This document shows, one piece after another, positions 9,616 to 59,637 of a DNA stretch of 64,000 bases (the first letter of the stretch is position 1; each line of letters opens with the position of its first letter). A program made the translations under genes and the position numbers. Source of the DNA: a virus. The stretch is from the IMG/VR virus record IMGVR_UViG_3300032268_000986, positions 46,259 through 110,258 of that record; one strand, written 5' to 3'. The notes beneath the pieces were generated by a model that did no database searches, had not been told where the DNA came from, and saw only the letters and a list, made by a program, of their open reading frames with translations.

Positions 9616-10196
9616 CAGCCGTTGCGCTAGGATGCAGTCACACTGCCGGAGTTGGTGTTGACTCACAGCACTGCTATGTATCAGTGCTGGGCCAGCTGCT
9701 GAATACACATATTAAAAATCTAGGAGTACCTGGCGGAAATTGTTCACATGTACAACATACCCTGGTCGCTGAATTAAAATTATCTCAGCGGCCAGACTTT
9801 GTGATTGCACAATGGCCCAATCCTGTTAGACTCACTGTATGGCATGGCGACCAGGCCAGAAATGAAAATTTAAACCATGCCAGCCCGGCCTTTAAACAAC
9901 TACTGCGCACCGGCGAACAAAATTTTTATCAACCCTGGATTGCAGCCATTGTTGTGTGTAATTTGCTGTGCCAACAGGCAGGAGTACCAATAATAAACAT
10001 CATGATTGAAGATGTTGACTCTCAATATTACACTGTGCTAGCCCGTGAAAACATTGTGCTGCATGTGGACCGCAAACTGCCTGATCAAACTTGGTTAATG
10101 GACTCAGCAGCCAGTGACAATTTGCATCATTCAGCCCGTTGTCACCAACAATGGGCCAATCGATTACATGGATTATTAAATGAATATACCACATAA
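9612..10196 (+). CDS. SGNH-like hydrolase-fold protein (GCSHTAG motif family)
   Basis: ALGCSHTAGVG and NLGVPGGN blocks; paralogous to C-terminal domain of 27797-28771. Confidence 0.4.
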   Translation: MTAVALGCSHTAGVGVDSQHCYVSVLGQLLNTHIKNLGVPGGNCSHVQHTLVAELKLSQRPDFVIAQWPNPVRLTVWHGDQARNENLNHASPAFKQLLRTGEQNFYQPWIAAIVVCNLLCQQAGVPIINIMIEDVDSQYYTVLARENIVLHVDRKLPDQTWLMDSAASDNLHHSARCHQQWANRLHGLLNEYTT

Positions 10197-11397
10197 TAAA
10201 TTCTGCGTGTTGCCCTGGGTAAGCCTGGAAGCGTCACCCATTGGCACAGTACGTCCGTGCTGCCTGGCCGATGATGAGCTGGTGGACAACAGCGGCACCA
10301 AGTTCTCGTTGTTGACTGCGGATTTTGCGGACATACAAAACAGTGATTCCATGCGCAGTCTGCGTGAGCAGTTCCTGGCAGGTGAACAACCTCAAACCTG
10401 TCGCAAGTGCTGGAACGAAGAACGTGCCGGCCGCACATCAAAACGCATGCACACCCTAAATCGTCTCAAGCATGTGATTGGTGATGATCCCTGGACTGCA
10501 GATGCCCGACCCCTGATGTTCCTGGATCTCAAACTGGGCAACATCTGCAACTTGAAATGTCGTATCTGCGGCTCATGGTCATCAAGCCAATTTGCCACAG
10601 AAGAACTCAATGACATGCATCCCGATGATGACAAGAAAAAAACATATCCATATCAGATGCTGCGAGCCGGTGCATGGCCCCGAGAGAATCAGCAGTTTTG
10701 GCAACAGATTGATTCAGTACTGAATGACATTCGATATATTGAATTCACTGGCGGTGAGCCATTCATGATTCGCGAACACTTTGCCATGCTGCAAGGCATT
10801 GTGGACCGTGGCATTGCTCATCAAGTCGAAATTCATTACAACACCAATGGCACTCAGTATCCTGCAGAAGCCATTGAAATCTGGCGCCATTTTAAAACAG
10901 TGGAAATTGCATTCAGCATTGATGACCTGGGTGCCAGATTTGAATACCAACGCACCAATGCTGTGTGGTCAGAAGTGGAACAAAATATTCAACGTTTTCG
11001 ACTGTTGCGTCGACAGTTGCCCATGATTCAACTACAGTGTTGCAGCACAGTGAACATTTTCAACATACACTACATAGATCAACTGGCCGCCTGGATTGTG
11101 CGCCAAGAATTTGATTTTGTGTACTGGAACATCATGCACGACGCCTGGTATTTTTCCATTGGCTGTTTGCCAGCCCCGGCCAAACAAGCCCTGGAGCATC
11201 ATTTGCGCACAGCCGCTGTGCCTGCGGTGTACCGCGAAGAATTTGATCGCATAATTGATTTCATGCAACGTGGAGCCACAACCGATGGATTCATGACTCG
11301 AATGAAAATACGTGATCTAGACCGCAAGCGCAATCAAAACATGCTGGACACGCAGCCAGAAATGGCAGCACTGCTGGGCTACAACTTCAACCAATGA
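10180..11397 (+). CDS. radical SAM/SPASM-domain enzyme
   Basis: CNLKCRICG; N-terminal CVLPW....RPCC; TGGEPF. Confidence 0.7.
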   Translation: MNIPHNKFCVLPWVSLEASPIGTVRPCCLADDELVDNSGTKFSLLTADFADIQNSDSMRSLREQFLAGEQPQTCRKCWNEERAGRTSKRMHTLNRLKHVIGDDPWTADARPLMFLDLKLGNICNLKCRICGSWSSSQFATEELNDMHPDDDKKKTYPYQMLRAGAWPRENQQFWQQIDSVLNDIRYIEFTGGEPFMIREHFAMLQGIVDRGIAHQVEIHYNTNGTQYPAEAIEIWRHFKTVEIAFSIDDLGARFEYQRTNAVWSEVEQNIQRFRLLRRQLPMIQLQCCSTVNIFNIHYIDQLAAWIVRQEFDFVYWNIMHDAWYFSIGCLPAPAKQALEHHLRTAAVPAVYREEFDRIIDFMQRGATTDGFMTRMKIRDLDRKRNQNMLDTQPEMAALLGYNFNQ

Positions 11398-12383
11398 AAA
11401 CACTGTTGTACGATAATCATACCAGTTTAGCATTGGACTGCTGTGCAGACCTGACTCAGCAGTATTTCAAAGTAGAACAGTATGATGCTGGCCGTGTGTA
11501 TGATCCTGCTGATACCTTGGTAGTGATACCATTCTTTGGCGCAGGTGACTGGGCGTTTGACCTGCATGCTCAGGGATTTCGTGTGGCAGTAGATAATCTA
11601 TGGGAACCCACCAGTCGCTATCTTGCCAGTCCAGGGTATGGCAAACTGGATCCTGATCGCACATTTGAAATTCACAGCGACTTGTGGTTTTGGTATTATG
11701 AATCCTGGAGCCTTTCTTATGCTCGAGCTCGCAATCAACATCTAGAGTACACACCACGCCGAACCTATAAAAAACTGGCGCTCATGCCCATGCGTCTTGA
11801 AAGAATGCATCGTGACTGGCTGTTTGACGCCATGACACCCTGGCTTGATGACTTCTACTACAGCTACCAAGCCAGGGGTATCAGTCTGCCCTGGGACCTG
11901 CCCTACGAAGATCCCACTGCACAACGCTACTATGATCCGCGTTGGTATGACGACACTTGGTTCAGCATAGTGGCCGAAAGCTATGTGGATGAAATGAATA
12001 TCACAACATGGGGAACCAACCGCACGCCTTATCTAGGACCTTGGCCATTTATCACAGAAAAAACCTTTAAACCCATTGCGTTTCAACATCCATTTCAGGT
12101 TCTGGGTCATTCAGGCACCTTGGCTCGACTGCGTGAACTGGGGTTTGAAACATTTCCAGAAATGTTTGATGAATCATATGACCAGGCACCTACCGAACAA
12201 AAGAAATTGTCTATTTTGAAAAATAATGTCGCCAATTTTGATCGCGGTGCCGGTGGTTACAGTCAACTAACACTGGATAAATTAACACACAACCACCAAT
12301 TGTTTTTTGACTCTAAGAGAGTTGAGCAGGGTTTTTATCAAGACATTATTGAACCACTATTGGCCTATGCAGAATCGACCTGA
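11394..12383 (+). CDS. glycosyltransferase-like protein, TEK-motif family (paralog 2)
   Basis: FITEKTFKPIAFQHPF...GFETF...DESYD. Confidence 0.5.
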   Translation: MKTLLYDNHTSLALDCCADLTQQYFKVEQYDAGRVYDPADTLVVIPFFGAGDWAFDLHAQGFRVAVDNLWEPTSRYLASPGYGKLDPDRTFEIHSDLWFWYYESWSLSYARARNQHLEYTPRRTYKKLALMPMRLERMHRDWLFDAMTPWLDDFYYSYQARGISLPWDLPYEDPTAQRYYDPRWYDDTWFSIVAESYVDEMNITTWGTNRTPYLGPWPFITEKTFKPIAFQHPFQVLGHSGTLARLRELGFETFPEMFDESYDQAPTEQKKLSILKNNVANFDRGAGGYSQLTLDKLTHNHQLFFDSKRVEQGFYQDIIEPLLAYAEST

Positions 12384-13662
12384 CACCATGTGCATGGCAC
12401 CCTGGGTGCATACCTATCTTTCACCACAGACCGAACGGCGTTTGTGTTGTGCCAGCCGTGAGCCTGCACAGAATTTTCGTCAGTACATAGACACTGCTGC
12501 TGGCACCGGCCGGTATATTCCCATTACCTTGGATCAACACTGGAATTCCGACCACATGCAGAGTGTGCGTCGACGCATGATGGCCGGAGAAACTCTGCCT
12601 GAATGCGATGTATGCAACAGCAAATTGCTGAATACTTCAGTGTATCGAGACTATTTTTGGCATCTGTTCCAGCACAAATTACCCGAAGTGTATGACAGCA
12701 CTGATGCCCAGGGCCGTACCACCATGCAACCAGTGTCATGGGATTATCGCTTTAGTAATCTCTGCAATTTCAAATGTAGGACCTGTGGTGACATGCTAAG
12801 TAGTTCATGGGAAAGCGAGCAAAAGATCAACAACATGGTCAATTGGAGCGACCCAAAAAACAACTGGATGCTGCCCCAGGTTCGACAACAAATCTCACAG
12901 TTCCAAGACAGTCAAATTGAACAAGAATTCAGTGACGCAGTGGAACAACACCGAGTGGAAGAGATTTACTGGGTAGGCGGTGAACCACTCATGTACGAAC
13001 AGCACTGGCGGTACATGAAAAGAATCATTGAACTAGGAGACGGAAAAAATGTTTACGCTAGATATAACACAAACCTCAGTCGTGTTCATTATCGCAACAC
13101 TGATCTTTATAGGGATCTGTTGGTTAACCTACGTGACTGGCAAATCTGCGCCAGCCTCGACGGAACAGGAGAAATCGGAGAATACATCCGCACAGGTCTG
13201 GAATATTCCACCTTTTTAAACAACTTTGAACAGGGTTTGACTATACAAACAAATCCGCGTCAGATGCGCCTGGACTTTACACTCACATTGCCGGGCATGT
13301 TTGAAGTTGACCGCATGCAACAGCTGGCTCAGCAGTATGGGGTGGAACTCTTGGCCAAGGTGATATTCTCGTTTACCCCGGACATTGTGATGAGTCCCTT
13401 GGCCCTGCCACGTGAATTACTGGATGCCTGGGTAGACGAGCTGGTGCCCAACTGCACCAGCAATGCCATGCGTGATGTGCTGACACAGTTGAAAACCCGT
13501 CCCACGTTTGAACAACAGTGGCCAGACACGTATCGTGTGGCTCTTGCTCGTGGCCGCGATCGTGTGTTAAAATTAGAATCTATTCGTCCCGGCACTACAA
13601 CCATGGAATCCATACTTGATGCCAGGCCAGAAATACGGAAATGGTGGAATGAAATTGCTTGA
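12367..13662 (+). CDS. radical SAM/SPASM-domain enzyme
   Basis: CNFKCRTCG; N-terminal CMAPW....RLCC; VGGEPL; ORF open from 12307, ATG 12367 chosen to limit overlap. Confidence 0.65.
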   Translation: MQNRPDTMCMAPWVHTYLSPQTERRLCCASREPAQNFRQYIDTAAGTGRYIPITLDQHWNSDHMQSVRRRMMAGETLPECDVCNSKLLNTSVYRDYFWHLFQHKLPEVYDSTDAQGRTTMQPVSWDYRFSNLCNFKCRTCGDMLSSSWESEQKINNMVNWSDPKNNWMLPQVRQQISQFQDSQIEQEFSDAVEQHRVEEIYWVGGEPLMYEQHWRYMKRIIELGDGKNVYARYNTNLSRVHYRNTDLYRDLLVNLRDWQICASLDGTGEIGEYIRTGLEYSTFLNNFEQGLTIQTNPRQMRLDFTLTLPGMFEVDRMQQLAQQYGVELLAKVIFSFTPDIVMSPLALPRELLDAWVDELVPNCTSNAMRDVLTQLKTRPTFEQQWPDTYRVALARGRDRVLKLESIRPGTTTMESILDARPEIRKWWNEIA

Positions 13663-38125: not shown

Positions 38126-38635
38126 TCATGATTTCACACGAGTGATAACACTGGCATGCTGCCACAACACACGATCACCACGGGTCATTACTTCCAACAA
38201 CAATCTCTTTTCTTCCAAGTATGTGCGAGCAAACTTTGCGTCATGCTCAACAATGCTTCTAGTGTTAGAGATCAAATCAGCCAACTTGACGGTCTGAGCC
38301 TCAGCCGGTGCTGCCGCTGTATGAGCACGATCAATGGCCTTGCGTGTGGTACGATTGCCTTGTTCAGGCCTTGACACATCGGTCAACCATCCCACCAATT
38401 CAGCAACCTTGTCACCAAATTCAGCACGAATTACTTCGTTGGTGACACCAGTGTCTTCGACTACATCATGCAACCAGGCCGCTGCCAACATCTCGGGAGT
38501 GTGATCCACTGTTGCAACAATGCCAGCAACTTCACGAGGGTGAACGATGTAAGGCTCCATGGTGTACTTGCGCAATTGAGCCACGGCCGAATGAGCCGCA
38601 GTGGCAAATATTCTAGCACGTTCAACTATTTCCAT
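38126..38635 (-). CDS. HD-domain hydrolase, RelA/SpoT-type (p)ppGpp hydrolase-like (small alarmone hydrolase)
   Basis: WLHDVVEDT HD motif; 169 aa. Confidence 0.75.
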   Translation of the reverse strand: MEIVERARIFATAAHSAVAQLRKYTMEPYIVHPREVAGIVATVDHTPEMLAAAWLHDVVEDTGVTNEVIRAEFGDKVAELVGWLTDVSRPEQGNRTTRKAIDRAHTAAAPAEAQTVKLADLISNTRSIVEHDAKFARTYLEEKRLLLEVMTRGDRVLWQHASVITRVKS

Positions 38636-38657
38636 GATATCTCCTTAACAATGCTGT

Positions 38658-38686
38658 ATTATAGCACATGAGCGAATTTCGGTCAA
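38658..38686 (-). promoter_or_regulatory. sigma70-type promoter TTGACC-N17-TATAAT upstream of HD hydrolase gene
   Basis: rc TTGACCgaaattcgctcatgtgcTATAAT. Confidence 0.65.
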
Positions 38687-39144
38687 GCGTACCAGATTTC
38701 ACTAAACCCTTCCTCGTGTGTGGGCATTTCAAAGTTCCATACCATGTCCCACAGCACAGCTTCGGGGATGACTTTGCCCGGCCGAGTCTTTAGTCTACGC
38801 TGATGTTCCTCTTCGTCTGGAGTCTGAAACACCACAGCAATGTGCTCATAGTCCGGCAACATGCGGAATTTACGCCTGCGGCTAGCAAAACTAGTTGACG
38901 TTTGATCCCAGATAATATCATGCCCGTGATTGCGAGCATGTACAACAACCTTGGACATTAGGTCCACTGCTGTGGGCATGTATTCTTCAAACACTTCTGA
39001 ATAAGTTTTGCCTTGAGCTCTAGCATAGTCTTCCACAAATGAATCTGTGCTGACCACAGTCAGTCCCAGAGCCCAGATTTGATTCTGGACCCAGGTACTC
39101 TTGCCCGATGCCGGAACTCCAATCAGTTGATAACATCTAGGCAT
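38683..39144 (-). CDS. P-loop kinase (polynucleotide kinase / zeta-toxin-like AAA domain)
   Basis: Walker A GVPASGKST. Confidence 0.6.
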   Translation of the reverse strand: MPRCYQLIGVPASGKSTWVQNQIWALGLTVVSTDSFVEDYARAQGKTYSEVFEEYMPTAVDLMSKVVVHARNHGHDIIWDQTSTSFASRRRKFRMLPDYEHIAVVFQTPDEEEHQRRLKTRPGKVIPEAVLWDMVWNFEMPTHEEGFSEIWYA

Positions 39145-39153
39145 ACACTCTCC

Positions 39154-39702
39154 TCAATAGTGAGATCGAATCTCACCCTTTAATGCATCTGCAATCAATC
39201 GGTCCATGTCACTGGCCACACATCCTGTGGCATCAAATGCCACATCTCTAGCACGATATTTTTCCAGGCCAGTTTTGTTGCCATGCACATGACCATAGAA
39301 GTGTACTGATCCACGATGCATTTGGTCCCATTCCCAGATGGGATAGTGAAACATTATCACCAACTGACCATTGTGAACATAACGCAGATACTGATGTGTT
39401 TCACGAAAACATTCCCGGAATTTTTGATCCTTGATCAGCTTGGCATCATGATTACCTTCAATCAAAATCTTGTCACCATTGAGTCGTTGCAGTATTGACA
39501 CTGCTCGTTCCGCGTTACAAAATGCAACATCACCAAGAATAAACGTTTGATCACCAGGATGCACAATCTGATTCCATTCTTGAATCAAACATTCATTCAT
39601 GTGATCTACATCTCGAAACCCAGCACGAGTCACAGGACAAAACTTCATGATGTTGGTGTGTCCAAAATGTAGATCACTTGTGATATAGGTCTTCATCATT
39701 TC
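39154..39702 (-). CDS. calcineurin-like metallophosphoesterase
   Basis: DLHFGH, GDVAF, GNHD motifs; ORF open to 39741. Confidence 0.75.
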   Translation of the reverse strand, partial: EMMKTYITSDLHFGHTNIMKFCPVTRAGFRDVDHMNECLIQEWNQIVHPGDQTFILGDVAFCNAERAVSILQRLNGDKILIEGNHDAKLIKDQKFRECFRETHQYLRYVHNGQLVIMFHYPIWEWDQMHRGSVHFYGHVHGNKTGLEKYRARDVAFDATGCVASDMDRLIADALKGEIRSHY

Positions 39703-39706
39703 CTTT

Positions 39707-40174
39707 TTAATAATTGTTTTTAAATGTGCGCCAATCATCAATGTTGGGCTTTTCTTGTTCGTCGTATGTCCAACCCAGGGCCTTCATCATGCTATGCTTG
39801 ACCATCAAGTTTGGACTACGAAAACGCTTGGTATCATCAAAGCCCATCATGACACCAACCTCGGTCACTGCACCCGACCGGCAAATACCTGCCATGCAAT
39901 GCACGACCACGTTCATGCGATTGTCTAGCGCATGTTTTAACAAACTAACAATCTCCTGAGCCTGTGCATCACTGATCTTGGCATCGTCGGGAAAGATGTC
40001 AGACTTTTCGGCATCAAGAAATTCAAACCGATGTGTTTCTTTGAAGTCATGGGCTGGAGTGGGCCACCAACTGGGTGCAGGATCCATGATCTGAATCAGC
40101 ATGCTATTCGCACCAGCATCGTGATGGAACTTCATGGGCACATCAGCGGCGGCTACGTTTTCAATCCAGGGCAT
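39707..40174 (-). CDS. protein tyrosine / dual-specificity phosphatase
   Basis: CX5R active site HCMAGICRSGA. Confidence 0.7.
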   Translation of the reverse strand: MPWIENVAAADVPMKFHHDAGANSMLIQIMDPAPSWWPTPAHDFKETHRFEFLDAEKSDIFPDDAKISDAQAQEIVSLLKHALDNRMNVVVHCMAGICRSGAVTEVGVMMGFDDTKRFRSPNLMVKHSMMKALGWTYDEQEKPNIDDWRTFKNNY

Positions 40175-45747: not shown

Positions 45748-46449
45748 ATGCAAACAATTTTATATATTCTCATTGTAACACACATTACCATTGCATGTGT
45801 TACGCTATTTTTACATCGAAGTCAAGCACACCGAGGAGTTGAGTTTCATCCTGTGGTGAGTCATTTCATGCGATTCTGGCTATGGCTAACGACTGGCATG
45901 GTCACTCGCCAATGGGTTGCCGTACACCGCAAGCATCATAGATTTACCGAACAGGATGGTGATCCGCACAGTCCACATGTGCATGGTTTTTGGCGTGTGC
46001 TGTTCACAGGTGCAGGTCTGTACCACTTGGCCAGCAAGGACTCGGCCATGGTCACACAATACGGCGCAGGAACACCCGATGACTGGGTAGAGCGCAACAT
46101 ATACTCCAAACACAGCAAACTAGGTATCTTGCTCATGTTGCTGATAGACATGGTATTGTTTGGTTGGTGGGGGTTGGTGGTATGGGGCATACAAATGATA
46201 TGGATCCCATTCTGGGCAGCAGGAGTTATCAATGGAATTGGACACTGGACCGGATACCGTAATGGTATTACTAAAGATCATAGTCGTAATATTAGTCCAC
46301 TGGGCATTGTTATTGGTGGCGAAGAACTACACAACAATCACCACTTGGATCCAGCAAATCCTCGTCTCAGTCGTCGCTGGTTTGAATTTGATATAGGCTG
46401 GGCGTACATACGCCTGTTGAGTGTGCTGAGACTGGCACACACGAGATAA
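45748..46449 (+). CDS. membrane fatty-acid (Delta9-type acyl) desaturase
   Basis: His boxes HRKHHRFTEQDGDPHSP and HNNHHLDP matching stearoyl-CoA/DesC-type desaturase boxes. Confidence 0.75.
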   Translation: MQTILYILIVTHITIACVTLFLHRSQAHRGVEFHPVVSHFMRFWLWLTTGMVTRQWVAVHRKHHRFTEQDGDPHSPHVHGFWRVLFTGAGLYHLASKDSAMVTQYGAGTPDDWVERNIYSKHSKLGILLMLLIDMVLFGWWGLVVWGIQMIWIPFWAAGVINGIGHWTGYRNGITKDHSRNISPLGIVIGGEELHNNHHLDPANPRLSRRWFEFDIGWAYIRLLSVLRLAHTR

Positions 46450-47768: not shown

Positions 47769-48239
47769 CTATGCGGCTTGCAGACCTTTGAATCGGTCGG
47801 CAGCATAGCTGGCAGCAAATGCATAGGGCTTCACAAACGGAATCACGTTGCATGTGCCTTTGATGTAGCCCACGGCCTGCGAAATCACACAGCTTGAGCC
47901 ATGCATTTCGTCAGGGTTGATGTCCAGGTGAACTTCAACATCCCGACCTTCCAACACTTCGGCCAGTTTGAGATACAGTTCCGAAACCTTGTAGACTTCG
48001 GTCATGAGTCGCATGGCAGGCTTACCGGGTTTTTGATCCCACACCCGTTCACGCTGAACTTCGCCAAAGATTTTGCAACCATTGTTGCCGTTGATGTGAA
48101 CCACAATGGCCAACACATAATCGGCCCACCACTCATTGTTGATCTTGATACGTTCCGAGTCGCATCCAAGATAGATGCGAGTTTCGGGCGTTTGTGCCTC
48201 GATAAAAGTCTTGACTTCTTCTAGATTGAGCTTTTTCAT
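47769..48239 (-). CDS. hypothetical protein (156 aa)
   Basis: ORF followed by terminator hairpin. Confidence 0.45.
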   Translation of the reverse strand: MKKLNLEEVKTFIEAQTPETRIYLGCDSERIKINNEWWADYVLAIVVHINGNNGCKIFGEVQRERVWDQKPGKPAMRLMTEVYKVSELYLKLAEVLEGRDVEVHLDINPDEMHGSSCVISQAVGYIKGTCNVIPFVKPYAFAASYAADRFKGLQAA

Positions 48240-49042: not shown

Positions 49043-49322
49043 ATTTATTTTTACATACAAAAATAAAAAATGCAAACAATCCGGTTTCGCCAGGGCCTCT
49101 GCAAGTCATCGACAATAGATAACTTTTCACACCGGAAACAGAGATAGACCTCTCATCTACCCAACTGGTCCATGTTAGATTAGTCGGATTACCAGTCCAA
49201 GAGCTAACTGGGGTATTACCCCCGCACGAGTCTTTGTTTGCAAAAATGGCGGGCCTGTACAGGAATCGAACCTGCCATCCGGCGCTTTGGACACGCCACG
49301 AATCTCCAGAGTGACCCATGAT

Positions 49323-49742: not shown

Positions 49743-49831
49743 TGGAGGAAGGCTAGTAGAATCGAACTCTATGCGCTTTCGCACACCTTCTGTTTTCAAG
49801 ACAGAGTCAGGCCCAGCCTGATTAACCTTCC
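49743..49831 (-). tRNA. tRNA-Ser(TGA)
   Basis: loop CTTGAAA; long variable arm. Confidence 0.7.
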
Positions 49832-50389: not shown

Positions 50390-50464
50390 TGGGGTGTCGT
50401 ATGAGAATCGAACTCATGACAGCGGAATCACAACCCGCGGTTTTGCCACTAAACTAACGTCACC
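50390..50464 (-). tRNA. tRNA-His(GTG)
   Basis: loop TTGTGAT; extra G-1 pairing with C73. Confidence 0.7.
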
Positions 50465-50583
50465 ATATAGAAACACTTTCAATATCAGTTCCTTGCTGGC
50501 ACAAAGAACCTTTCGCCTCTGCCAGGAGACCGAACATTGGCCGCGCTCATTGGCGGTTACTGTCCGTCAAAAATGTTTTTATA

Positions 50584-50735: not shown

Positions 50736-50840
50736 ATGGATCGTAAAGAATTGTCTTTCACGTGCCATCCCTGACCATACGGGGTCAAGAATGACACTAA
50801 CGTTTGGCACGTTTCATGTCGTTCTCCTTGTTTAAAAAAT

Positions 50841-52868: not shown

Positions 52869-52944
52869 TGGTTGCGGGACTTGGATTCGAACCAAGGATG
52901 GCAAAGGCTTATGAGACCTCGCTAGTGACCAGACCTTCCCCGCG
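52869..52944 (-). tRNA. initiator-like tRNA-fMet(CAT) with degenerate D-arm
   Basis: 5' CGCGGGG and 3' CCCGCAACCA as in bacterial tRNA-fMet (C1-A72 mismatch); loop CTCATAA; D-stem poorly paired. Confidence 0.6.
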
Positions 52945-52969
52945 CTATTCAGTTACAGTTATTTATACA

Positions 52970-53047
52970 TGGAGTCTCGGGAGGGATTTGAACCCACGAA
53001 TCAACGGATTTGCAATCCGAGCCATTGAGCCACTCTGGTACCGAGAC
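52970..53047 (-). tRNA. tRNA-Cys(GCA)
   Basis: perfect acceptor GTCTCGG/CCGAGAC; loop TTGCAAA. Confidence 0.65.
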
Positions 53048-53803
53048 ATTACCCTATATGTAAACACACTGTCATCACCACCATACTTCCACGTCTTACG
53101 GCAGATGTGTCTGTCCTGTGTGTTTACATATAAGCATGTTGAATTTGAGAGCCTACGCCGCTTTTATCGTAGATTTATTCAGGACTTACCGGCCGCCTAG
53201 CCTGACCTCGAGCACGATGGATATCACTTGGGCTTCGTCCAGCGTAGTCTCCTTTACAGACCTCCGCAGTTGCCCGCGGGTGGGAGTTGAACCCATTTGC
53301 CTTTTACTGCTTTGGTCCTTCGAAGAAACCTAGACAGCGTGACTTCACTTGCTGACACTCTCAAAACTTGGCGGTCCTAGGGGGTAACGATCCCCACTCT
53401 TACGGCGTGACAAGCCGTCGTGCGTCCATGAACACTTTAGGACCAATTTTTATAGTCAAGCACCGAGAATGCCAATTTAGGAGTCCGGTGCTTCCGTTCC
53501 AAAGCCGATGCAGTTATGTCAGGATCCGTTCCCGGCCGGTTGGACCCGAATAGTGTATGCGTCCATACACGATACCTTATCGATGCTTGACTATAAAAAC
53601 AAAAATGCTCTGCATCCCCCGGCGGTAATTGTAGTGCATCATCTCTTGGATTTCTCCGCAATTCTCACACACCTTCCACCCGCTTCCCGACAGGGACCGT
53701 TATCGCATTGCCAGCGGCCTTTCGGTAAGAAGACTACCACCCTTGGCTATCACACCACTTCTCATCTTGCGGGTCACAATATCTGCTGATTAGGCAGAAC
53801 GTT

Positions 53804-53890
53804 TTGGTGGAGACGGATGGATTCGAACCACCGCGCTTTTTAGGGGCCAGATTTACAGTCTGGTGCAATCAACCACTCTGCCACATCTCC
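53804..53890 (-). tRNA. tRNA-Tyr(GTA)
   Basis: loop CTGTAAA; long variable arm. Confidence 0.7.
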
Positions 53891-53963
53891 AAAAAAGGTA
53901 GGATCACGGTTGCAGGACCTAGTGCTCTTGCGAGGAAGTATCCAGGCGATGTGATCCTAAAAA

Positions 53964-54038
53964 TGGTACACGATACGGGAATCGAACCCGTCTTACCAAC
54001 GTGAAAGGCTGGTGTCCTAAACCGATAGACGAATCGTG
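53964..54038 (-). tRNA. tRNA-Glu(TTC)
   Basis: loop CTTTCAC; T-arm ACGGGTTCGATTCCCGT. Confidence 0.65.
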
Positions 54039-54499
54039 CATGCTATATGCAACCACATTAGGGAAGTTCTTGACACGCATCACCAACTTGCATCAAGACC
54101 TCATTACGGGCCTAGTAGTTCCGCCGCCTTCCTGGAGTTTGGTGTAGCCCTATCCCTCACGCTCGATGGTGTCTCGCGCTACTCTTAGGCCCTCCTGCTT
54201 CATGGGTATCCGGCTCGAATCAGCCTTTTGTTCACCCCTAACGGACTAGGTAACCCTAATGTGTTTGCATATAGTAGCTGGGCAAACCCAGCACCATATG
54301 AAAATAACTGTAACTTGTTAAAGAACTCTGGAACTAGTTGTGATCAACTATTTCCTAACTAGCCACTAGTATAACATCATCTGCCATACCGGTCAACTTG
54401 TTTTGTAAAAGCCCCGCCTTGTTGCAGGGTCTTTACAAACTCAGCTGTCTTTCCCGACTTGTTTCTATTGTAACACTCTACTCAATTTTGGTCTAGCAC

Positions 54500-54540
54500 T
54501 AAAAGAAAAACCCGCATCATGTGCGGGTCTTTGGTTGTTA
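54500..54540. terminator. bidirectional rho-independent terminator (stronger on minus)
   Basis: stem cccgca/tgcggg between aaaagaaaaa and tctttggtt. Confidence 0.55.
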
Positions 54541-54722
54541 GTACTTTCTACTTAGGGTGTTACACCCGCTGTAACACCTGTACCGTTGACGATGGCTCGC
54601 AATCGCTCTCATAGGCTATTGCTGTCCAATAATTCAAGGTGATTAGTTGTGTCATCATAGTGTTATTATATATGCCTGTGCAATAAATGTCTATACTTTT
54701 CTGGGTCTTTTTGTCCATTTTG

Positions 54723-55799
54723 TCAGAGATCCAACAACACATGATGCTCGCTCACGCTGCCGATGTAGTCACACCGAACTTGGCTCTGGTTGAACCAACC
54801 AGGGTGCTGGTGTTGCAATAGGTCACAGTAGGCTTCAAACTTTGCCAATGTGGTTTGACCCTGGGAACTCAGCGCACAGTTATTGATCAACAGCAGTTCC
54901 TTGCGGTCAAATTGCCAGTCATGTTGATGTGACACTGTGCCATTGATTCTTGGAAACCCCCACTTTTTATCCAGGCAGTTTCCTGGTGTGGGGAACCCCA
55001 AGGCAGCTTTGATGTCAAGCCCCTGCACTCCCTGTTGCGCAAGATCATGTAGGCCGTATGCATACGCAAACGCTAGGTTAGGGTTGCGTTGGTCACAGAA
55101 AAAGTGAATCATGCGAGGAGTCATGAAATTCAAATTGAACCGGTTGTCCATCCAGTAAAATTTGTTGCCATCTAACACTGGCATGGCAGCACCACCAACA
55201 TTGACATAATTATCTTGTTGTAGATGTGGATAACACTCAATGGCCTGCAACGGGTTAGTGGTGCATGGGCGCAGTGTTTTGTGTCGCAACCACCGATGTT
55301 CTACATCTTCCATGTACCAAGCATAGTGCTCGGGCAAGATATCATAGTACACCACTTGAGCTCGACTGCGGTATTGTTGCAGAGTCTTGGCCAGCACGGA
55401 CCTAAAGGGAAACACATCAATTTCTATATTGACATACTCATCCACAGCACCAGGGAATCTACGATACACTGCAATTTCATCAACATCTGCCCCAGTTTCT
55501 AAAAATGCCATCAGGGCAGCATGACTGTCCATGCCACCGCTGTACCACAGGCGTATGCGACTGTGATGATCACGTATGAGTTGGGCCTGATCCAAGCACA
55601 GTTGCCAAAAAGTTTTTTGCGGTCGTAATCCGGCTAGGCTGTGGGACCAAACACGAAACCCCGGTGCGGCATGCCCCAGTTCTTGAGCTTTTCTCAGCGC
55701 ATCAATCTTGCTGTGTCCATGCCATGTGCTCACATGGTAATGAGGTCCTGTGTAGCCCTGCCCTGGATCAATCTTTTCTGTGACTTTTACTGGTGTCAT
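54723..55799 (-). CDS. PP-loop ATP pyrophosphatase-family enzyme (QueC/TilS/asparagine synthetase-like)
   Basis: SGGMDS PP-loop motif at ~aa 88. Confidence 0.6.
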   Translation of the reverse strand: MTPVKVTEKIDPGQGYTGPHYHVSTWHGHSKIDALRKAQELGHAAPGFRVWSHSLAGLRPQKTFWQLCLDQAQLIRDHHSRIRLWYSGGMDSHAALMAFLETGADVDEIAVYRRFPGAVDEYVNIEIDVFPFRSVLAKTLQQYRSRAQVVYYDILPEHYAWYMEDVEHRWLRHKTLRPCTTNPLQAIECYPHLQQDNYVNVGGAAMPVLDGNKFYWMDNRFNLNFMTPRMIHFFCDQRNPNLAFAYAYGLHDLAQQGVQGLDIKAALGFPTPGNCLDKKWGFPRINGTVSHQHDWQFDRKELLLINNCALSSQGQTTLAKFEAYCDLLQHQHPGWFNQSQVRCDYIGSVSEHHVLLDL

Positions 55800-57097
55800 G
55801 AGTATAGTTGAATCAATCGATTCGTTATGCCATTGAGTTGATTTTCTAACAGCAGCACCAGCACCAAGGGCATGAAATCCACTCGACGAGCTGTAATCCA
55901 GCCCACTGCACCACTGGCTGCAAACACCAGCATGTAGTACAGAGTCTGATCGCTACGCCAGCCCTGATACATCACAGTGGCAGTCAACAGCACAATCAAC
56001 ACTGATACTATGGCATTGTAGTACTGTTGGAACCAGCTCAGTAATTGTTTTACCACTGACGAGCACACCCAGGCCACAACAGCACATCCGATCAGTAAAC
56101 TTGCAGTTACCAGGCCCACCATGTTCCAGTCAAGATTGGTGGCACGCCACCCATGACTGGCCAAGATATCCAATATCACCAACTCACTGGGCTGTACCGC
56201 TAGGCCCAACAACACAAACGGAATCAGGCTTGAAACCTGGCTGGCATTGTTGGCAGCTTCTGCAGCCGTGAGACGAGACAGACTGTCTGTGAGATGCGGT
56301 TGTTTGCGAAATCTTGATTCCACAGAGTGTGCCAAATTGGATGTGATGATACCGCCCACGTATGGCACAAGCCCACACACAAATCCCACTGCACTGCCGC
56401 GCAGTGCAGATAGCCAGGCAAACGATCTTTGCGTGTGACCATTGATGTCAATGGGCATGCCCATGGGGGATTGCTGGTGCTTGATCAACAGCATGGTGGG
56501 CACTGCATACACTCCCAGTATCACCGGGGTAATTGGTATGCCTCCGGCCAAGTACACATTGCCCAGAGTCAAAAAGTCCTGACCAGTCTGCATGTTGTGT
56601 CCTACTGCGCCTATAATCCAGCCCAGTGCAATCAACCCAAGATTTATCATGGCTCTGTTGCCGGGCCATGCAGTGACAAATGTCAGTGTGACAAACAACA
56701 ACACTGCCATGACTTCGGTTCTAAACAGCATGGGCCAGGCCTGTCCTTGGTGCAAGCAAATCAACATTGCGGAGAGACTCGCTGCCATGCCAATCAAGCT
56801 GGCTCGGGCAGTGTCTTTCAATGCTTGCTGGATAGCATTGTGACCAATAATGATATTGCGTTCACGCAAGGCAGGTGCAGATGTTACTTCACCTAGAGTG
56901 CCAAAGCACAGCGCAGCCACTGATCCTGAAAAGTCTCGAGCCGAAATCATCACAGCGTAAAATGCAATCAACACAGCCGGACTCATCATGTTCAGCATGG
57001 GATACAGTATCAACAACATAAACACCGGACCCAGACCAGGCATGAGCCCTACCAAGATTCCAATGGCTGGTGCCAACAGCAACAACAGCAGTTCCAT
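55796..57097 (-). CDS. TctA-like tripartite tricarboxylate transporter large permease
   Basis: ~12 TM segments; GLMPGLGPV resembles TctA LPG(I/L)GP motif. Confidence 0.55.
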   Translation of the reverse strand: MELLLLLLAPAIGILVGLMPGLGPVFMLLILYPMLNMMSPAVLIAFYAVMISARDFSGSVAALCFGTLGEVTSAPALRERNIIIGHNAIQQALKDTARASLIGMAASLSAMLICLHQGQAWPMLFRTEVMAVLLFVTLTFVTAWPGNRAMINLGLIALGWIIGAVGHNMQTGQDFLTLGNVYLAGGIPITPVILGVYAVPTMLLIKHQQSPMGMPIDINGHTQRSFAWLSALRGSAVGFVCGLVPYVGGIITSNLAHSVESRFRKQPHLTDSLSRLTAAEAANNASQVSSLIPFVLLGLAVQPSELVILDILASHGWRATNLDWNMVGLVTASLLIGCAVVAWVCSSVVKQLLSWFQQYYNAIVSVLIVLLTATVMYQGWRSDQTLYYMLVFAASGAVGWITARRVDFMPLVLVLLLENQLNGITNRLIQLYS

Positions 57098-58780: not shown

Positions 58781-58810
58781 ATTATATATGCAACTGCATG
58801 TTGCAGTCAA
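58781..58810 (-). promoter_or_regulatory. candidate promoter TTGACT-N18-TATAAT upstream of OMP gene
   Basis: rc TTGACTgcaacatgcagttgcataTATAAT. Confidence 0.4.
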
Positions 58811-58850
58811 GAAGAAAGGTCAGATTAACTGACCTTTCTGGTGGTTTCTG
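58811..58850. terminator. hairpin terminator candidate
   Basis: 10-bp stem gaaaggtcag/ctgacctttc, loop attaa, T-rich flanks. Confidence 0.4.
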
Positions 58851-59637
58851 TTACGAGGTATTTCCTACCCTAAGCAGTGTTTAGGCTGCTAATGCGAACT
58901 GTGAGTCGTTTGCGTTTACTTTTTTGCTTGATTAACGGTCATCGCCTACCGTGCTGTCCACTCTGTTACTTGTTGCCCTGTCGAAACTATGCAGGCCCAT
59001 CATAAAGAAACTTCTTCAAATCTAGATGCCAAAAGCACAATACGCAAACCGGCATCTGTTTGAATTACTACTCCATTACCCATGGTATAGACAATATCAT
59101 AGTCTTTGCCAATTGTTAGTTCCTTATGCACAGCTTTAACATCAGGTAATGATTTAAGTATCATAAACTTCCTTATGGTGGACCTGGGGGGATTCGCACC
59201 CCCGTCCAGAACACTGTTCTCATCACTTCATACAGCAATAACTTTTAGATCTGCACCACGGTCCATTTGGTTGTAAATGGTTTGCCTTCGGCCTTGTGTT
59301 TCAGTATCTTCGCAAACTCTTTTTCACGGAGTTTGGCAATGGTTTCTGTATCGTGGTCGAAGCAAGCCTTGTACAAACGAGAAACCAATTTCTTTTGTTT
59401 CATAGCTTACCCCTCCTTGACAATTATTTATGCAAATTATACAGCATTGTCTGTTGGTTTGTCAACCGCCAATTTGGTCACAATGTCATACACTTGAGAG
59501 TACACGTTGGTGATTTTGTCCAGTTGTTCGTCACTGACTTGTGTTTCAAAATACACTAGATCTCGTGCTAGATTTTCTTGTAGCTGTTTGAGTTGATTTT
59601 GGTCATGCATGGCAGTATCCTGTTGGGATACTGTTAT

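What the first reader, a model, noticed from the sequence alone, without database searches (positions are those of the whole stretch)
53048..53803. ~750-bp ORF-free, structure-rich segment inside the tRNA array (candidate structured ncRNA: tmRNA-like, intron or tRNA pseudogenes)
No credible ORF. There is a 14-bp inverted repeat atatgtaaacacac/gtgtgtttacatat (53056/53118). A 13-bp IR tttatagtcaagc/gcttgactataaa lies at 53450/53586 around repeated gcgtccat motifs and a gtgtatg-cgtc-catacac hairpin. The palindrome cccgcggg lies next to a T-arm-like gggagttgaaccca at 53270-53296. It is flanked by tRNA-Cys and tRNA-Tyr.
Basis: seen in the sequence. Interest (0 to 1): 0.55.

Follow-up and report, generated by a model that had tools for sequence, protein, structure and literature searches.

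The report
New structured RNAs between phage tRNAs
The apparently empty 750 bases inside this phage's tRNA gene cluster hold an unusual tRNA-Asp gene and three conserved, intricately folded non-coding RNA genes of unknown function that match no catalogued RNA family.

Summary
But the segment is not one element.

B1, B2 and A recur in 138, 57 and 50 related environmental phage loci. They always lie on the tRNA strand, and where the nearest tRNA is within 30 nt (most contexts) they sit flush against it, next to many different tRNAs and in different orders.

Each has strong covariation: 96-99% of cells paired, and 16-23 pairs changed on both sides against 1-10 in slid controls. There are signs of tertiary contacts and no coding signal. 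None matches any of the 4227 Rfam families, T4 rnaC/rnaD, or the GOLLD RNA that some relatives carry in the same arrays.

Best reading: three new structured RNA gene families, co-transcribed with the tRNAs and released by tRNA processing. Their function is unknown. It is not a tmRNA, an intron or a set of tRNA pseudogenes.

The parts
53604..53804 (-). RNA B1 (~200 nt). It has three 5' hairpins: H1 at 53782-53799, H2 at 53767-53779 with an invariant GACCC loop, and H3 at 53744-53757. A long-range helix pairs GGUGGU (within 53734-53743) with ACCGCC (within 53619-53628) and encloses a multi-hairpin junction. A 29-nt invariant block ACGGUCCCUGUCGGGAAGCGGGUGGAAGG lies at 53672-53700. The conserved 3' tail GGGGGAUGCAGAGCAU lies at 53605-53621.
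   Evidence: nhmmer gives 138 hits and 95 unique sequences. The 13-sequence alignment A1 has 43 pairs, 97.9% of cells paired, and 16 pairs changed on both sides against 1-5 in slid controls. Mutual-information analysis of 91 sequences recovers the helices and adds an H1-loop/H3-loop pair (GC:65, AU:19). No Rfam hit.
53445..53603 (-). RNA B2 (~157 nt).
   Evidence: The 16-sequence alignment A2 has 38 pairs, 99.0% of cells paired, and 23 pairs changed on both sides against 4-6 in slid controls. There are 57 hits and 35 unique sequences. Extra covarying pairs 70-99 and 71-98 suggest a loop-loop or pseudoknot contact. It occurs once in the window.
53369..53444 (-). tRNA-Asp (anticodon GUC), with encoded CCA. 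It is non-canonical: A8 and U14, and a T-loop AUCGUUA (A54, U58), in place of U8:A14 and T54:A58.
   Evidence: ARAGORN finds it but the Rfam tRNA model does not report it. It is 100% identical in L006, L008, L009 and L012. About 20 distinct relatives keep A8/U14/A54/U58 while their acceptor, anticodon and T stems change in a compensatory way.
53137..53368 (-). RNA A (~232 nt). The closing stem P1 pairs UUUUGAGAGU (53357-53366) with GCUCUCAAA (53144-53152). The invariant junction GUCAGCAAG lies at 53348-53356. A long hairpin with an invariant UUCGAA loop lies at 53306-53338. The T-arm-like hairpin UGGGUUCAACUCCCA lies at 53281-53295. A variable hairpin lies at 53246-53262, and the conserved 3' tail UUCAAC lies at 53137-53143.
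   Evidence: The 13-sequence alignment A5 has 47 pairs, 96.4% of cells paired, and 22 pairs changed on both sides against 4-10 in slid controls. P1 covaries, including matched insertions. There are 50 hits and 34 unique sequences. No tRNA call from ARAGORN or Rfam.
53055..53132 (-). Hairpin A3, with 15-16 perfect bp plus an internal loop. It lies between RNA A and tRNA-Cys.
   Evidence: I6, and the MFE structure. No homologue in any of 201 related loci, so it is specific to this genome. Its role is unknown; an RNase III site or a recent insertion is possible.
53805..53890 (-). tRNA-Tyr (GUA). It is the upstream neighbour of B1 in the direction of transcription.
52970..53047 (-). tRNA-Cys (GCA), the downstream boundary of the segment.
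53891..53963 (-). Conserved ~70-nt hairpin cassette C, between tRNA-Glu and tRNA-Tyr. It is outside the finding but in the same operon.
   Evidence: 49 nhmmer hits in related loci. It sits between tRNAs in many relatives.
54040..54280 (-). RNA D2 (~235 nt), a fourth structured RNA directly upstream of tRNA-Glu. Its 21-bp closing stem has arms at 54043-54063 and 54254-54274.
   Evidence: I2. The 7-sequence alignment A6 has 69 predicted pairs, 15 of them with compensatory changes. The 683-nt spacer that contains it folds with z = -5.3.
54293..54396 (-). Sigma-70-like promoter matches: TTGACC-17-TATACT (with a TG extension) at 54396-54368, and TTAACA-17-TATGGT at 54321-54293. They lie just upstream of D2 and downstream of a terminator-like hairpin at 54532-54506.
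   Evidence: These are consensus matches only: 9 promoter-like sites were found against 3.2 expected.

Best explanation
The segment is a densely packed stretch of the phage's minus-strand tRNA operon. It contains three independent non-coding RNA genes (B1 ~200 nt, B2 ~157 nt, A ~232 nt), a non-canonical tRNA-Asp, and one lineage-specific hairpin.

Shown:
- Each RNA is a discrete cassette conserved across many related uncultivated large phages.
- Each folds into a multi-helix structure maintained by compensatory substitutions, with signs of tertiary contacts and long invariant single-stranded blocks.
- Each is non-coding and matches no Rfam family.
- Each always lies on the tRNA strand. Where the nearest tRNA is within 30 nt (most contexts), the cassette abuts it within 0-5 nt, almost always within 2. 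Those neighbouring tRNAs are of many different identities and the cassettes occur in different orders.

Inferred:
- The RNAs are co-transcribed with the tRNAs from promoter-like sites near 54300-54400.
- They are released by 'tRNA punctuation'. RNase P cutting at the 5' end of the downstream tRNA would make their 3' ends, and maturation of the encoded CCA end of the upstream tRNA would make their 5' ends. RNase III possibly cuts the 21-bp stems of B2 and D2.
- They then act in trans as stable folded RNAs.

Most likely, but unproven: they belong to the same functional sphere as the other RNAs that phages keep in tRNA islands (GOLLD, ROOL, T4 RNA C/D). That sphere is support or protection of the phage's own translation and tRNA system during infection. 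RNA A may present a tRNA-like T-arm or elbow to a tRNA-recognising partner.
For: Discrete genes:
- blastn and nhmmer find B1, B2 and A separately and in different orders in relatives.
- B2 has B1 directly upstream in only 12 of 43 distinct cases.
- Where a same-strand tRNA lies within 30 nt, the gap from cassette to tRNA is -3 to +5 nt, almost always within 2. That covers about 60 of 84 upstream and 30 of 76 downstream contexts for B1, 26 of 26 downstream for B2, and 23 of 30 upstream and 22 of 31 downstream for A. At least 8 to 12 different tRNA identities occur on each side of B1 and A; B2's neighbours are fewer (2 upstream, 4 downstream).

Structure:
- Paired cells are 97.9%, 99.0% and 96.4%, against 21-48% when the partners are slid.
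- 16, 23 and 22 pairs changed on both sides, against 1-10 in slid controls. 0 of 500 shuffles reached the observed covariation score.
- The closing stem of RNA A covaries, with matched insertions.
- Mutual information on 91, 30 and 32 unique sequences recovers the helices and adds loop-loop pairs.

Non-coding: there is no periodicity, indels are mostly not multiples of 3, and no ORF is conserved.

Not a known family: there is no Rfam match at gathering score or at E<=10, in the window or in relative L015.

Phage-restricted:
- The B1 core 21-mer occurs in at least 119 IMG/VR contigs of up to 524 kb.
- Across 185,579 species genomes it occurs in 2 MAG contigs. One of these carries the same phage-type array with a real B1. 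In the other only the 21-mer itself matches the B1 profile.

Same niche as known phage RNAs:
- Rfam finds GOLLD at 204 bits in relative L036. GOLLD homologues occur in 23 of 202 sequences (201 related loci plus the window) within the same arrays.
- The literature places GOLLD and ROOL near phage tRNA islands (PMC12286853).

Transcription unit: promoter-like sites lie upstream of D2, and no minus-strand terminator lies within 53048-54280.
Against: - There is no expression, end-mapping or processing data. Co-transcription and the processing enzymes are inferred from gene order and from general knowledge of bacterial tRNA maturation.
- Nothing indicates a function. No partner protein was found in the window. 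Complementarity between the cassettes, or to the tRNAs or tmRNA, does not exceed shuffles.
- Cassette ends are defined by profile ends and ARAGORN calls, not by experiment.
- The metagenomic sequences are related to one another, so cell counts overstate the number of independent events. The slid controls and the number of pair types mitigate this.
- The H1/H3 kissing interaction in B1 rests on one covarying pair and is weak in the 13-sequence alignment.
- The promoter matches are consensus hits only.
Confidence: 0.72

Rival explanations
1. The cassettes are cis-acting structured spacers. They exist only to insulate neighbouring tRNAs from misfolding or to guide processing of the precursor (RNase III or RNase E entry sites), and they are degraded after cleavage. 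They have no function in trans.
For: They are flush with tRNAs on both sides. B2 and D2 are closed by ~21-bp stems typical of RNase III sites. No partner or target was found.
Against: Most tRNA-tRNA junctions in the same array do without them, with 3-10 nt spacers. The same tRNA occurs with and without a given cassette, and the cassettes sit next to many different tRNAs. A simple spacer would not need a 29-nt invariant single-stranded block, multi-way junctions or loop-loop covariation.
Confidence: 0.15
2. B2 (and D2) are miniature inverted-repeat mobile elements (MITE-like). Their 'closing stem' is a pair of terminal inverted repeats.
For: They have 21-23 bp terminal inverted repeats with A/T-rich flanks, they are 157-235 bp long, and their position among relatives varies.
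Against: There is a single copy in the 64-kb window. They are found only inside tRNA arrays and only on the tRNA strand. Internal hairpins and a tertiary pair covary, and the stem changes by compensatory substitutions that keep pairing.
Confidence: 0.04
3. The segment is decayed tRNA genes, that is, pseudogenes or tRNA-derived junk.
For: RNA A contains a hairpin with a perfect T-loop consensus. It is 89% identical over 19 nt to the T-arm of tRNA-Cys. In relative L015, part of RNA A gives a 15.8-bit tRNA-Sec hit at E=5.4.
Against: There is no cloverleaf by ARAGORN or Rfam. The T-arm-like hairpin is one helix of a 232-nt fold whose closing stem and five other helices covary. B1 and B2 have no tRNA-like part. 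Purifying selection is as strong as on the tRNAs themselves.
Confidence: 0.03
4. It is a divergent or fragmented member of a known large RNA: GOLLD with an embedded tRNA, ROOL, a tmRNA, RNase P RNA, or a group I/II intron.
For: GOLLD linkers sometimes contain tRNAs (PMC12286853), and GOLLD occurs in relatives' arrays. A weak tmRNA_permuted match recurs in the window (17.9 bits) and in L015 (19.7 bits).
Against: No Rfam hit to GOLLD, ROOL, RNase P or introns appears even at E<=10. The window shows no blastn similarity to the relatives' ~950-nt GOLLD. B1, B2 and A assort independently and co-occur with a separate GOLLD in some loci. The tmRNA match is below the gathering score of 47 and starts inside tRNA-Tyr.
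Confidence: 0.03
5. The region encodes small proteins.
For: Mechanical ORFs of 61-110 aa overlap it.
Against: No ORF is conserved in frame or strand among relatives. Variable columns number 33/40/36, 35/32/30 and 46/52/47 by codon position. Most internal indels are not multiples of 3.
Confidence: 0.02

Closest known systems
GOLLD (RF02032) and ROOL RNAs: large ornate RNAs of phages and prophages, encoded near tRNA islands
   Same: They share the genomic niche (phage tRNA islands). GOLLD itself lies in the same arrays in relatives. They are also non-coding and elaborately structured with covariation, and their function is unknown (PMC12286853).
   Different: There is no sequence or model similarity. 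These RNAs are 3-5 times smaller (157-235 nt against ~600-950 nt). Whether they self-assemble into oligomers is untested. The window genome has the new RNAs but no GOLLD in these 64 kb.
Bacteriophage T4 stable RNAs rnaC (species 1, 139 nt) and rnaD (species 2, 119 nt) in the T4 tRNA cluster
   Same: They are small stable RNAs of unknown function, encoded directly next to phage tRNA genes on the same strand (PMC9697503). T4 rnaC, like RNA A, contains a T-arm-like hairpin.
   Different: There is no credible sequence similarity: at most 4.6 bits, and only over the generic T-arm. T4 rnaC carries its T-arm at the 3' end and rnaD ends in CCA. RNA A has its T-arm-like hairpin internally and ends in UUCAAY. 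B1 and B2 have no tRNA-like part.
tRNA punctuation of polycistronic transcripts (animal mitochondria; bacterial rRNA-tRNA operons)
   Same: Non-tRNA genes abut tRNAs within 0-2 nt, so tRNA end-processing alone would define their ends.
   Different: Here the released products would be structured non-coding RNAs of a phage, not mRNAs or rRNAs. The processing itself has not been observed.
tRNA-mimicking non-coding RNAs (bacterial and phage YrlA/Y RNAs, viral tRNA-like structures)
   Same: RNA A carries a conserved hairpin with a canonical T-loop sequence, and a second hairpin with an invariant UUCGAA loop.
   Different: There is no Rfam match to YrlA or tRNA-like families. No Ro/Rsr (TROVE) gene was seen among the 58 window proteins scanned. 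There is no acceptor-CCA end.

Membership tests
GOLLD RNA (RF02032) | Match to the conserved 3' domain covariance model at or above the gathering score (150 bits) | tested here: not met
   The whole window has no hit at gathering score, and 52900-54800 has none at E<=10. The positive control works: relative L036 scores 204 bits.
GOLLD RNA (RF02032) | Sequence homology to the GOLLD copies present in related phages | tested here: not met
   blastn of L036:2200-4300 against the window gives only a 59-nt hit at E=0.009 elsewhere in the window. The window is absent from the set of GOLLD homologues.
ROOL, RNase P RNA, group I/II introns, 6S, SRP, YrlA (Rfam 15) | Covariance-model match | tested here: not met
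   None is listed at E<=10 in window 52900-54800 or in L015 5400-6450.
tmRNA (including permuted two-piece forms) | tRNA-like domain plus tag reading frame, with a model score at or above the gathering score | tested here: not met
   17.9 bits against a gathering score of 47, covering model positions 36-95 only and anchored in the 3' half of tRNA-Tyr. The genuine tmRNA is at 58790-59268 with tag ANDSQFALAA.
tRNA intron (group I) or split tRNA | An interrupted tRNA whose halves flank the insert | tested here: not met
   tRNA-Tyr, tRNA-Asp and tRNA-Cys are all complete cloverleaves. Cassettes lie between tRNAs, not within them.
tRNA gene or pseudogene (for RNA A) | Cloverleaf with acceptor, D, anticodon and T arms | tested here: not met
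   Only a T-arm-like hairpin is present. ARAGORN and the Rfam tRNA model make no call. The covarying fold is a 232-nt multi-helix RNA.
tRNA gene (for 53369-53444) | Cloverleaf with anticodon and conserved helices maintained by compensatory change | tested here: met
   ARAGORN calls tRNA-Asp(gtc). About 20 distinct homologues keep the cloverleaf through compensatory stem changes. A8/U14 and A54/U58 replace the canonical tertiary pairs, which explains why the Rfam model misses it.
T4-type stable RNAs of the tRNA cluster (rnaC/rnaD) | Sequence homology to T4 rnaC or rnaD | tested here: not met
   nhmmer profiles of B1, B2, A, D2 and C were run against T4 rnaD+rnaC. Only two hits of 4.6 and 3.5 bits appeared, for RNA A. 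One covers the generic T-arm and the other runs into the end of tRNA-Arg.
T4-type stable RNAs of the tRNA cluster (rnaC/rnaD) | Co-transcription with tRNAs and accumulation as a stable processed RNA | not testable with these tools
   This needs RNA-seq or Northern data. Only gene order, strand and flush boundaries support it.
MITE-like mobile element (B2, D2) | Multiple dispersed copies in either orientation | tested here: not met
   There is one copy of each in the window, even at E<=10. Every full-length copy whose neighbourhood was examined lies in a tRNA array on the tRNA strand.

The most novel reading that the evidence does not exclude
B1, B2, A and the neighbouring D2 are founding members of several new classes of compact, tertiary-structured phage RNAs. 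They would be smaller companions of GOLLD and ROOL, with a biochemical activity of their own. Candidates are binding the tRNA elbow or 3' end, acting as decoys for host tRNA-targeting defence nucleases, self-assembly, or catalysis. On this reading, the tRNA islands of this clade of uncultivated large phages are general 'RNA gene islands' holding a dozen or more such families.
Probability: 0.3. Interest if true: 0.85.

Novelty: new variant of a known kind. Interest (0 to 1): 0.68.

Why it matters
Phage tRNA islands are already known to hide some of the most elaborate RNAs of unknown function, such as GOLLD, ROOL and T4 RNA C/D.

This window adds at least three well-supported structured RNA families, or four with D2. 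All are absent from Rfam 15. They are small enough (157-235 nt) for straightforward chemical probing, crystallography or cryo-EM, and binding assays.

They co-occur with GOLLD in relatives, and they sit beside a tRNA-Asp with swapped tertiary pairs. The same window also carries a tmRNA and RNA end-healing-like enzymes. Together these point to an RNA-level toolkit for translational autonomy or counter-defence in large phages.

If a function were found for any of these RNAs, it would give a handle on the long-open question of why phages place structured RNAs among their tRNAs.

Tried and rejected
- **Rfam.** At gathering score on the whole window, and at E<=10 on the region and on a relative, only tRNAs and noise appeared: sX4 over tRNA-Tyr, mir-30/mir-3149 on the A3 hairpin, and tmRNA_permuted at 17.9-19.7 bits.
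- **GenBank phages.** blastn of the region matched only tRNA-Tyr, and the neighbouring genes matched nothing.
- **First attempt at related loci.** The neighbouring 358-aa protein gave no match. The RNaseH-like (DUF458) gene in the array worked.
- **Cultured phages.** Those sharing the array gene (Stenotrophomonas DLP6, Synechococcus BUCT-ZZ01) have tRNA arrays but no B1, B2 or A by profile search. The weak hits were ordinary T-arms of unannotated tRNAs.
- **T4 rnaC/rnaD.** Tested as homologues and rejected. The shared AACGUUC in rnaC and B1 is not supported by any alignment.
- **Published catalogue.** I looked for the RNAs among the 8,495 candidate structured RNAs of IMG/VR (PMC10690425). No supplementary sequences are held, so they may be listed there without a name.
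- **Coding potential.** Rejected.
- **Inter-cassette pairing.** RNAduplex between cassettes, and from cassettes to tRNAs and the tmRNA, gave nothing beyond shuffles, with z >= -2.1.
- **B1 kissing loop.** On the 13-sequence alignment, support is only marginal.
- **Protein partners.** Pfam and PHROG scans of 58 window proteins found no RNA-binding partner (Ro/TROVE, reverse transcriptase, RtcB).
- **MFE closing stem of B1.** The stem GUUCUGC/GCAGAGC predicted for the window sequence is not conserved in relatives and was dropped.
Full report
**1. What is at the coordinates**

The window carries a long minus-strand tRNA array. ARAGORN genes, and there is a permuted tmRNA at 58790-59268.

So the 'gap' is really two spacers. 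Spacer A (53048-53368) is 321 nt and spacer B (53445-53804) is 360 nt.

The two long inverted repeats are far beyond chance. The region has two perfect repeats of at least 13 bp (longest 16), while 200 dinucleotide-preserving shuffles gave none (maximum 12). The repeated 8-mer gcgtccat is not significant by my own estimate.

Mechanical ORFs of up to 110 aa overlap the region, but none behaves like a gene (section 4).

**2. Known families were checked first**

Rfam 15 (4227 families) finds only tRNAs and the tmRNA in the window at gathering score.

At E<=10 on 52900-54800 it adds only noise:
- sX4 over tRNA-Tyr;
- two microRNA models on the 53055-53132 hairpin;
- a 17.9-bit tmRNA_permuted match (gathering score 47) that starts inside tRNA-Tyr.

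A relative gave the same picture. There was no hit to GOLLD, ROOL, RNase P, introns, 6S, SRP or YrlA.

GenBank phages share nothing with the spacers at the DNA level.

**3. Relatives show that the spacers are made of discrete cassettes**

An RNaseH-like (PF04308/DUF458) gene inside the array (47769-48239) retrieved 80 IMG/VR loci. They come from contigs of up to 364 kb.

blastn and nhmmer then showed that the spacers are conserved at 70-95% identity but in pieces:
- Spacer B is B1 (~200 nt) plus B2 (~157 nt).
- Spacer A is one ~232-nt RNA (A1+A2), followed by a hairpin (53055-53132) that has no homologue anywhere.

In relatives the pieces occur separately, in different orders, and next to different tRNAs.

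Over 201 loci, profile searches found:
- B1 in 138 loci (95 unique sequences);
- B2 in 57 loci (35 unique);
- A in 50 loci (34 unique).

Wherever a same-strand tRNA lies within 30 nt, the cassette abuts it within -3 to +5 nt, almost always within 2. This holds for about 60 of 84 upstream and 30 of 76 downstream contexts of B1. It holds for 23 of 30 upstream and 22 of 31 downstream contexts of A, and for all 26 downstream contexts of B2. In the other contexts the immediate neighbour is usually another cassette, as in the window. At least 8-12 different tRNA identities occur on each side of B1 and A. B2 has fewer neighbours: tRNA-Glu or tRNA-Tyr upstream, and mostly tRNA-Asp or tRNA-Cys downstream.

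B2 has B1 directly upstream in only 12 of 43 distinct cases. Each cassette occurs once in the window.

The same 21-mer occurs in only two contigs among one genome for each of 185,579 species, and both are MAG contigs. One is plainly the same phage-type array, with a tmRNA tag ANDEQFALAA and the order tRNA-Glu, B2, tRNA-Asp, B1. In the other only the 21-mer itself matches the B1 profile. These RNAs are therefore phage genes, not host genes.

**4. They are structured RNAs, not coding and not junk**

| RNA | Alignment | Pairs | Cells paired | Pairs changed on both sides | Same count in slid controls |
|---|---|---|---|---|---|
| B1 | 13 sequences | 43 | 97.9% | 16 | 1-5 |
| B2 | 16 sequences | 38 | 99.0% | 23 | 4-6 |
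| A | 13 sequences | 47 | 96.4% | 22 | 4-10 |

- In the slid controls only 21-48% of cells are paired.
- In all three cases 0 of 500 column shuffles reach the observed covariation score.

The closing stem of RNA A pairs UUUUGAGAGU with GCUCUCAAA in the window, UUUUGUAAGU with ACUUACAAA in L051, and UUUUGUUAGAGU with ACUCUAACAAA in L062. These include matched insertions.

With 91, 30 and 32 unique sequences, mutual information recovers the same helices and adds non-nested pairs:
- a pair between the H1 loop and the H3 loop of B1 (GC:65, AU:19);
- B2 columns 70-99 and 71-98 (CG/GC and GC/AU).

These suggest tertiary contacts. The B1 contact is only marginal in the small alignment.

B1 also has a 29-nt block, ACGGUCCCUGUCGGGAAGCGGGUGGAAGG, that is invariant in the 13-sequence alignment and 90-100% conserved at every position across 91 unique sequences.

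Coding is excluded:
- Variable columns are evenly spread over the three codon positions.
- Most indels are not multiples of three.
- No ORF is shared among relatives.

**5. Anatomy in the window (minus strand)**

- **B1 (53604-53804).** It has three 5' hairpins, a long-range helix GGUGGU/ACCGCC enclosing a junction of four hairpins, and a conserved G-rich 3' tail.
- **B2 (53445-53603).**
- **RNA A (53137-53368).** It has the closing stem P1 and the invariant junction GUCAGCAAG. A long hairpin is capped by an invariant UUCGAA loop. The cccgcggg palindrome is simply the 5' strand of a GCAA-loop hairpin. Three further helices follow, then a conserved tail UUCAAY.

**6. The tRNA-Asp**

The tRNA at 53369-53444 has a normal cloverleaf, a GUC anticodon and an encoded CCA. 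But it has A8 with U14, and a T-loop AUCGUUA (A54, U58). Both universal reverse-Hoogsteen pairs (U8:A14 and T54:A58) are swapped.

About 20 distinct relatives keep exactly this pattern while their stems change in a compensatory way. Other relatives carry canonical tRNA-Asp genes. This explains why the Rfam tRNA model does not report it.

**7. The surroundings**

The same operon continues upstream with three more elements:
- a conserved ~70-nt hairpin cassette C (53891-53963, 49 hits);
- tRNA-Glu;
- a fourth structured RNA, D2 (54040-54280), with a 21-bp closing stem and 69 predicted pairs, 15 of them compensatory in 7 sequences.

Sigma-70-like promoter matches lie just upstream of D2 at 54396-54368 and 54321-54293. 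They follow a terminator-like hairpin at 54532-54506, and no minus-strand terminator lies within the cluster.

In relatives the same arrays contain GOLLD. L036 scores 204 bits, and homologues occur in 23 of 202 sequences (201 related loci plus the window). The window has none.

I clustered 1051 unique inter-tRNA spacers from these loci. This gave 29 families with at least 5 distinct members. Many are ORF-poor and are none of B1, B2, A, C, D2 or GOLLD. Three other spacers in the window's own array are conserved in the same way. The finding is therefore one instance of a general property of this phage clade: its tRNA islands are islands of RNA genes.

**8. How it most likely works**

Shown:
- These are discrete, conserved, non-coding cassettes on the tRNA strand.
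- They are structurally constrained.
- They are flush with tRNAs and assort independently.

Inferred from established bacterial tRNA maturation:
- RNase P makes tRNA 5' ends.
- RNase E cleavage plus exonucleolytic trimming makes 3' ends when CCA is encoded.
- The cassettes would therefore be co-transcribed with the tRNAs and released by tRNA processing ('tRNA punctuation').
- RNase III is a plausible extra player at the 21-bp stems of B2 and D2.

Inferred from conservation of loops and junctions, and from independence of the neighbouring tRNAs: the cassettes act in trans as stable folded RNAs.

The function is unknown. My best guess is a role in the phage's own translation or tRNA system, or in its protection. 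I put this at about 0.3. The window also carries a near-complete tRNA set, a tmRNA, an odd tRNA-Asp and an RNA end-healing-like gene trio (HD phosphohydrolase, PNK-like kinase, phosphoesterase at 38126-39741). RNA A also presents tRNA-like T-loop hairpins.

The main rival is a purely cis-acting processing spacer, at about 0.15.

**9. Comparison with what is known**

The closest known things are GOLLD and ROOL, which share the niche. GOLLD even lies in the same arrays (PMC12286853). Also close are the T4 stable RNAs rnaC and rnaD, which are still of unknown function (PMC9697503).

Membership in each was tested and not met:
- No covariance-model match.
- No blastn similarity to the relatives' GOLLD.
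- At most 4.6 bits to T4 rnaC/rnaD, over a generic T-arm.

Cultured phages that share the array's DUF458 gene (DLP6, BUCT-ZZ01) lack the cassettes.

A 2023 survey predicted 8,495 unnamed candidate structured RNAs in IMG/VR (PMC10690425). I could not check whether these are among them, because no supplement is held.

**10. Verdict**

- The interpretation 'structured ncRNA' is right. 'tmRNA-like, intron or tRNA pseudogenes' is wrong.
- What is there is a non-canonical tRNA-Asp plus three new families of structured phage RNAs (four with D2). I rate them a new variant of a known kind, namely structured RNAs of phage tRNA islands.

Confidence:

| Claim | Confidence |
|---|---|
| These are genuine structured RNA genes | about 0.9 |
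| Biogenesis by tRNA punctuation | about 0.6 |
| Any specific function | no more than 0.3 |

Noticed in passing
window 53369-53444 (-): The tRNA-Asp(GUC) has both universal tertiary reverse-Hoogsteen pairs swapped: A8:U14 and A54:U58, with T-loop AUCGUUA. About 20 distinct relatives conserve this with compensatory stem changes, and the Rfam tRNA model misses it. It may evade host modification or tRNA-targeting nucleases.
   Followed up: partly
window 54040-54280 (-): RNA D2 is a fourth conserved structured RNA directly upstream of tRNA-Glu. It has a 21-bp closing stem and 69 predicted pairs, 15 of them compensatory in 7 sequences. No Rfam match.
   Followed up: partly
window 53891-53963 (-): A conserved ~70-nt hairpin cassette C lies between tRNA-Glu and tRNA-Tyr. 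It has 49 hits in related loci and is always positioned like a tRNA-sized gene.
   Followed up: partly
window 49043-49322, 50464-50583, 50736-50840 (-): Other inter-tRNA spacers of the same array are conserved in 5-17 related loci. Across the clade, 29 spacer families have at least 5 distinct members, many of them ORF-poor. These are probably more unclassified RNA cassettes.
   Followed up: no
L036 3737-4201; also L010, L014, L077, L013, L067, L041, L034, L032, L027, L065: GOLLD RNA (Rfam, 204 bits in L036; ~950-nt homologues elsewhere) sits in the tRNA arrays of relatives but is absent from this window.
   Followed up: yes
window 58790-59268 (-): A permuted (two-piece) tmRNA with tag ANDSQFALAA. 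Relatives score best on the beta-proteobacterial tmRNA model, which hints at the host group.
   Followed up: no
window 49747-49831 (-): Rfam calls this tRNA-Sec (48 bits against a gathering score of 47), and ARAGORN misses it. By eye it is a class II tRNA with anticodon UGA, that is tRNA-Ser(UGA), with a long variable arm and encoded CCA.
   Followed up: partly
window 52869-52944 (-): The ARAGORN tRNA-Met(CAU) has a C1 x A72 mismatch, which is initiator-like. It too is absent from the Rfam gathering-score list.
   Followed up: no
window 38126-39741 (-): Three adjacent genes: an HD phosphohydrolase (PF13328), a P-loop kinase resembling polynucleotide kinase (PF13671, phrog_505) and a phosphoesterase (phrog_547). 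This is an RNA end-healing-like set, consistent with tRNA repair.
   Followed up: partly
window 4036-13662 (+): A run of five radical-SAM proteins, two of them with SPASM domains. A carbamoyltransferase lies nearby, with sugar-modifying enzymes further along. This is an unusual auxiliary gene block for a phage.
   Followed up: no
window 55796-57097 (-) and 45748-46449 (+): A TctA-family tricarboxylate transporter subunit and a fatty-acid desaturase are encoded next to, or inside, the tRNA island.
   Followed up: no
L012 4189-4267; L034 1883-1975: ARAGORN 'tRNA-Pyl(cta)' calls in relatives are amber-suppressor-type tRNAs. In L034 the call sits directly upstream of RNA A; in L012 about 110 nt upstream. 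They may point to stop-codon recoding in part of the clade.
   Followed up: no
L036 1876-2049; L038 1467-1543; L039 1765-1841: Unassigned 77-170-nt segments are inserted between B1 and B2 in some relatives. Their nature is unknown.
   Followed up: no
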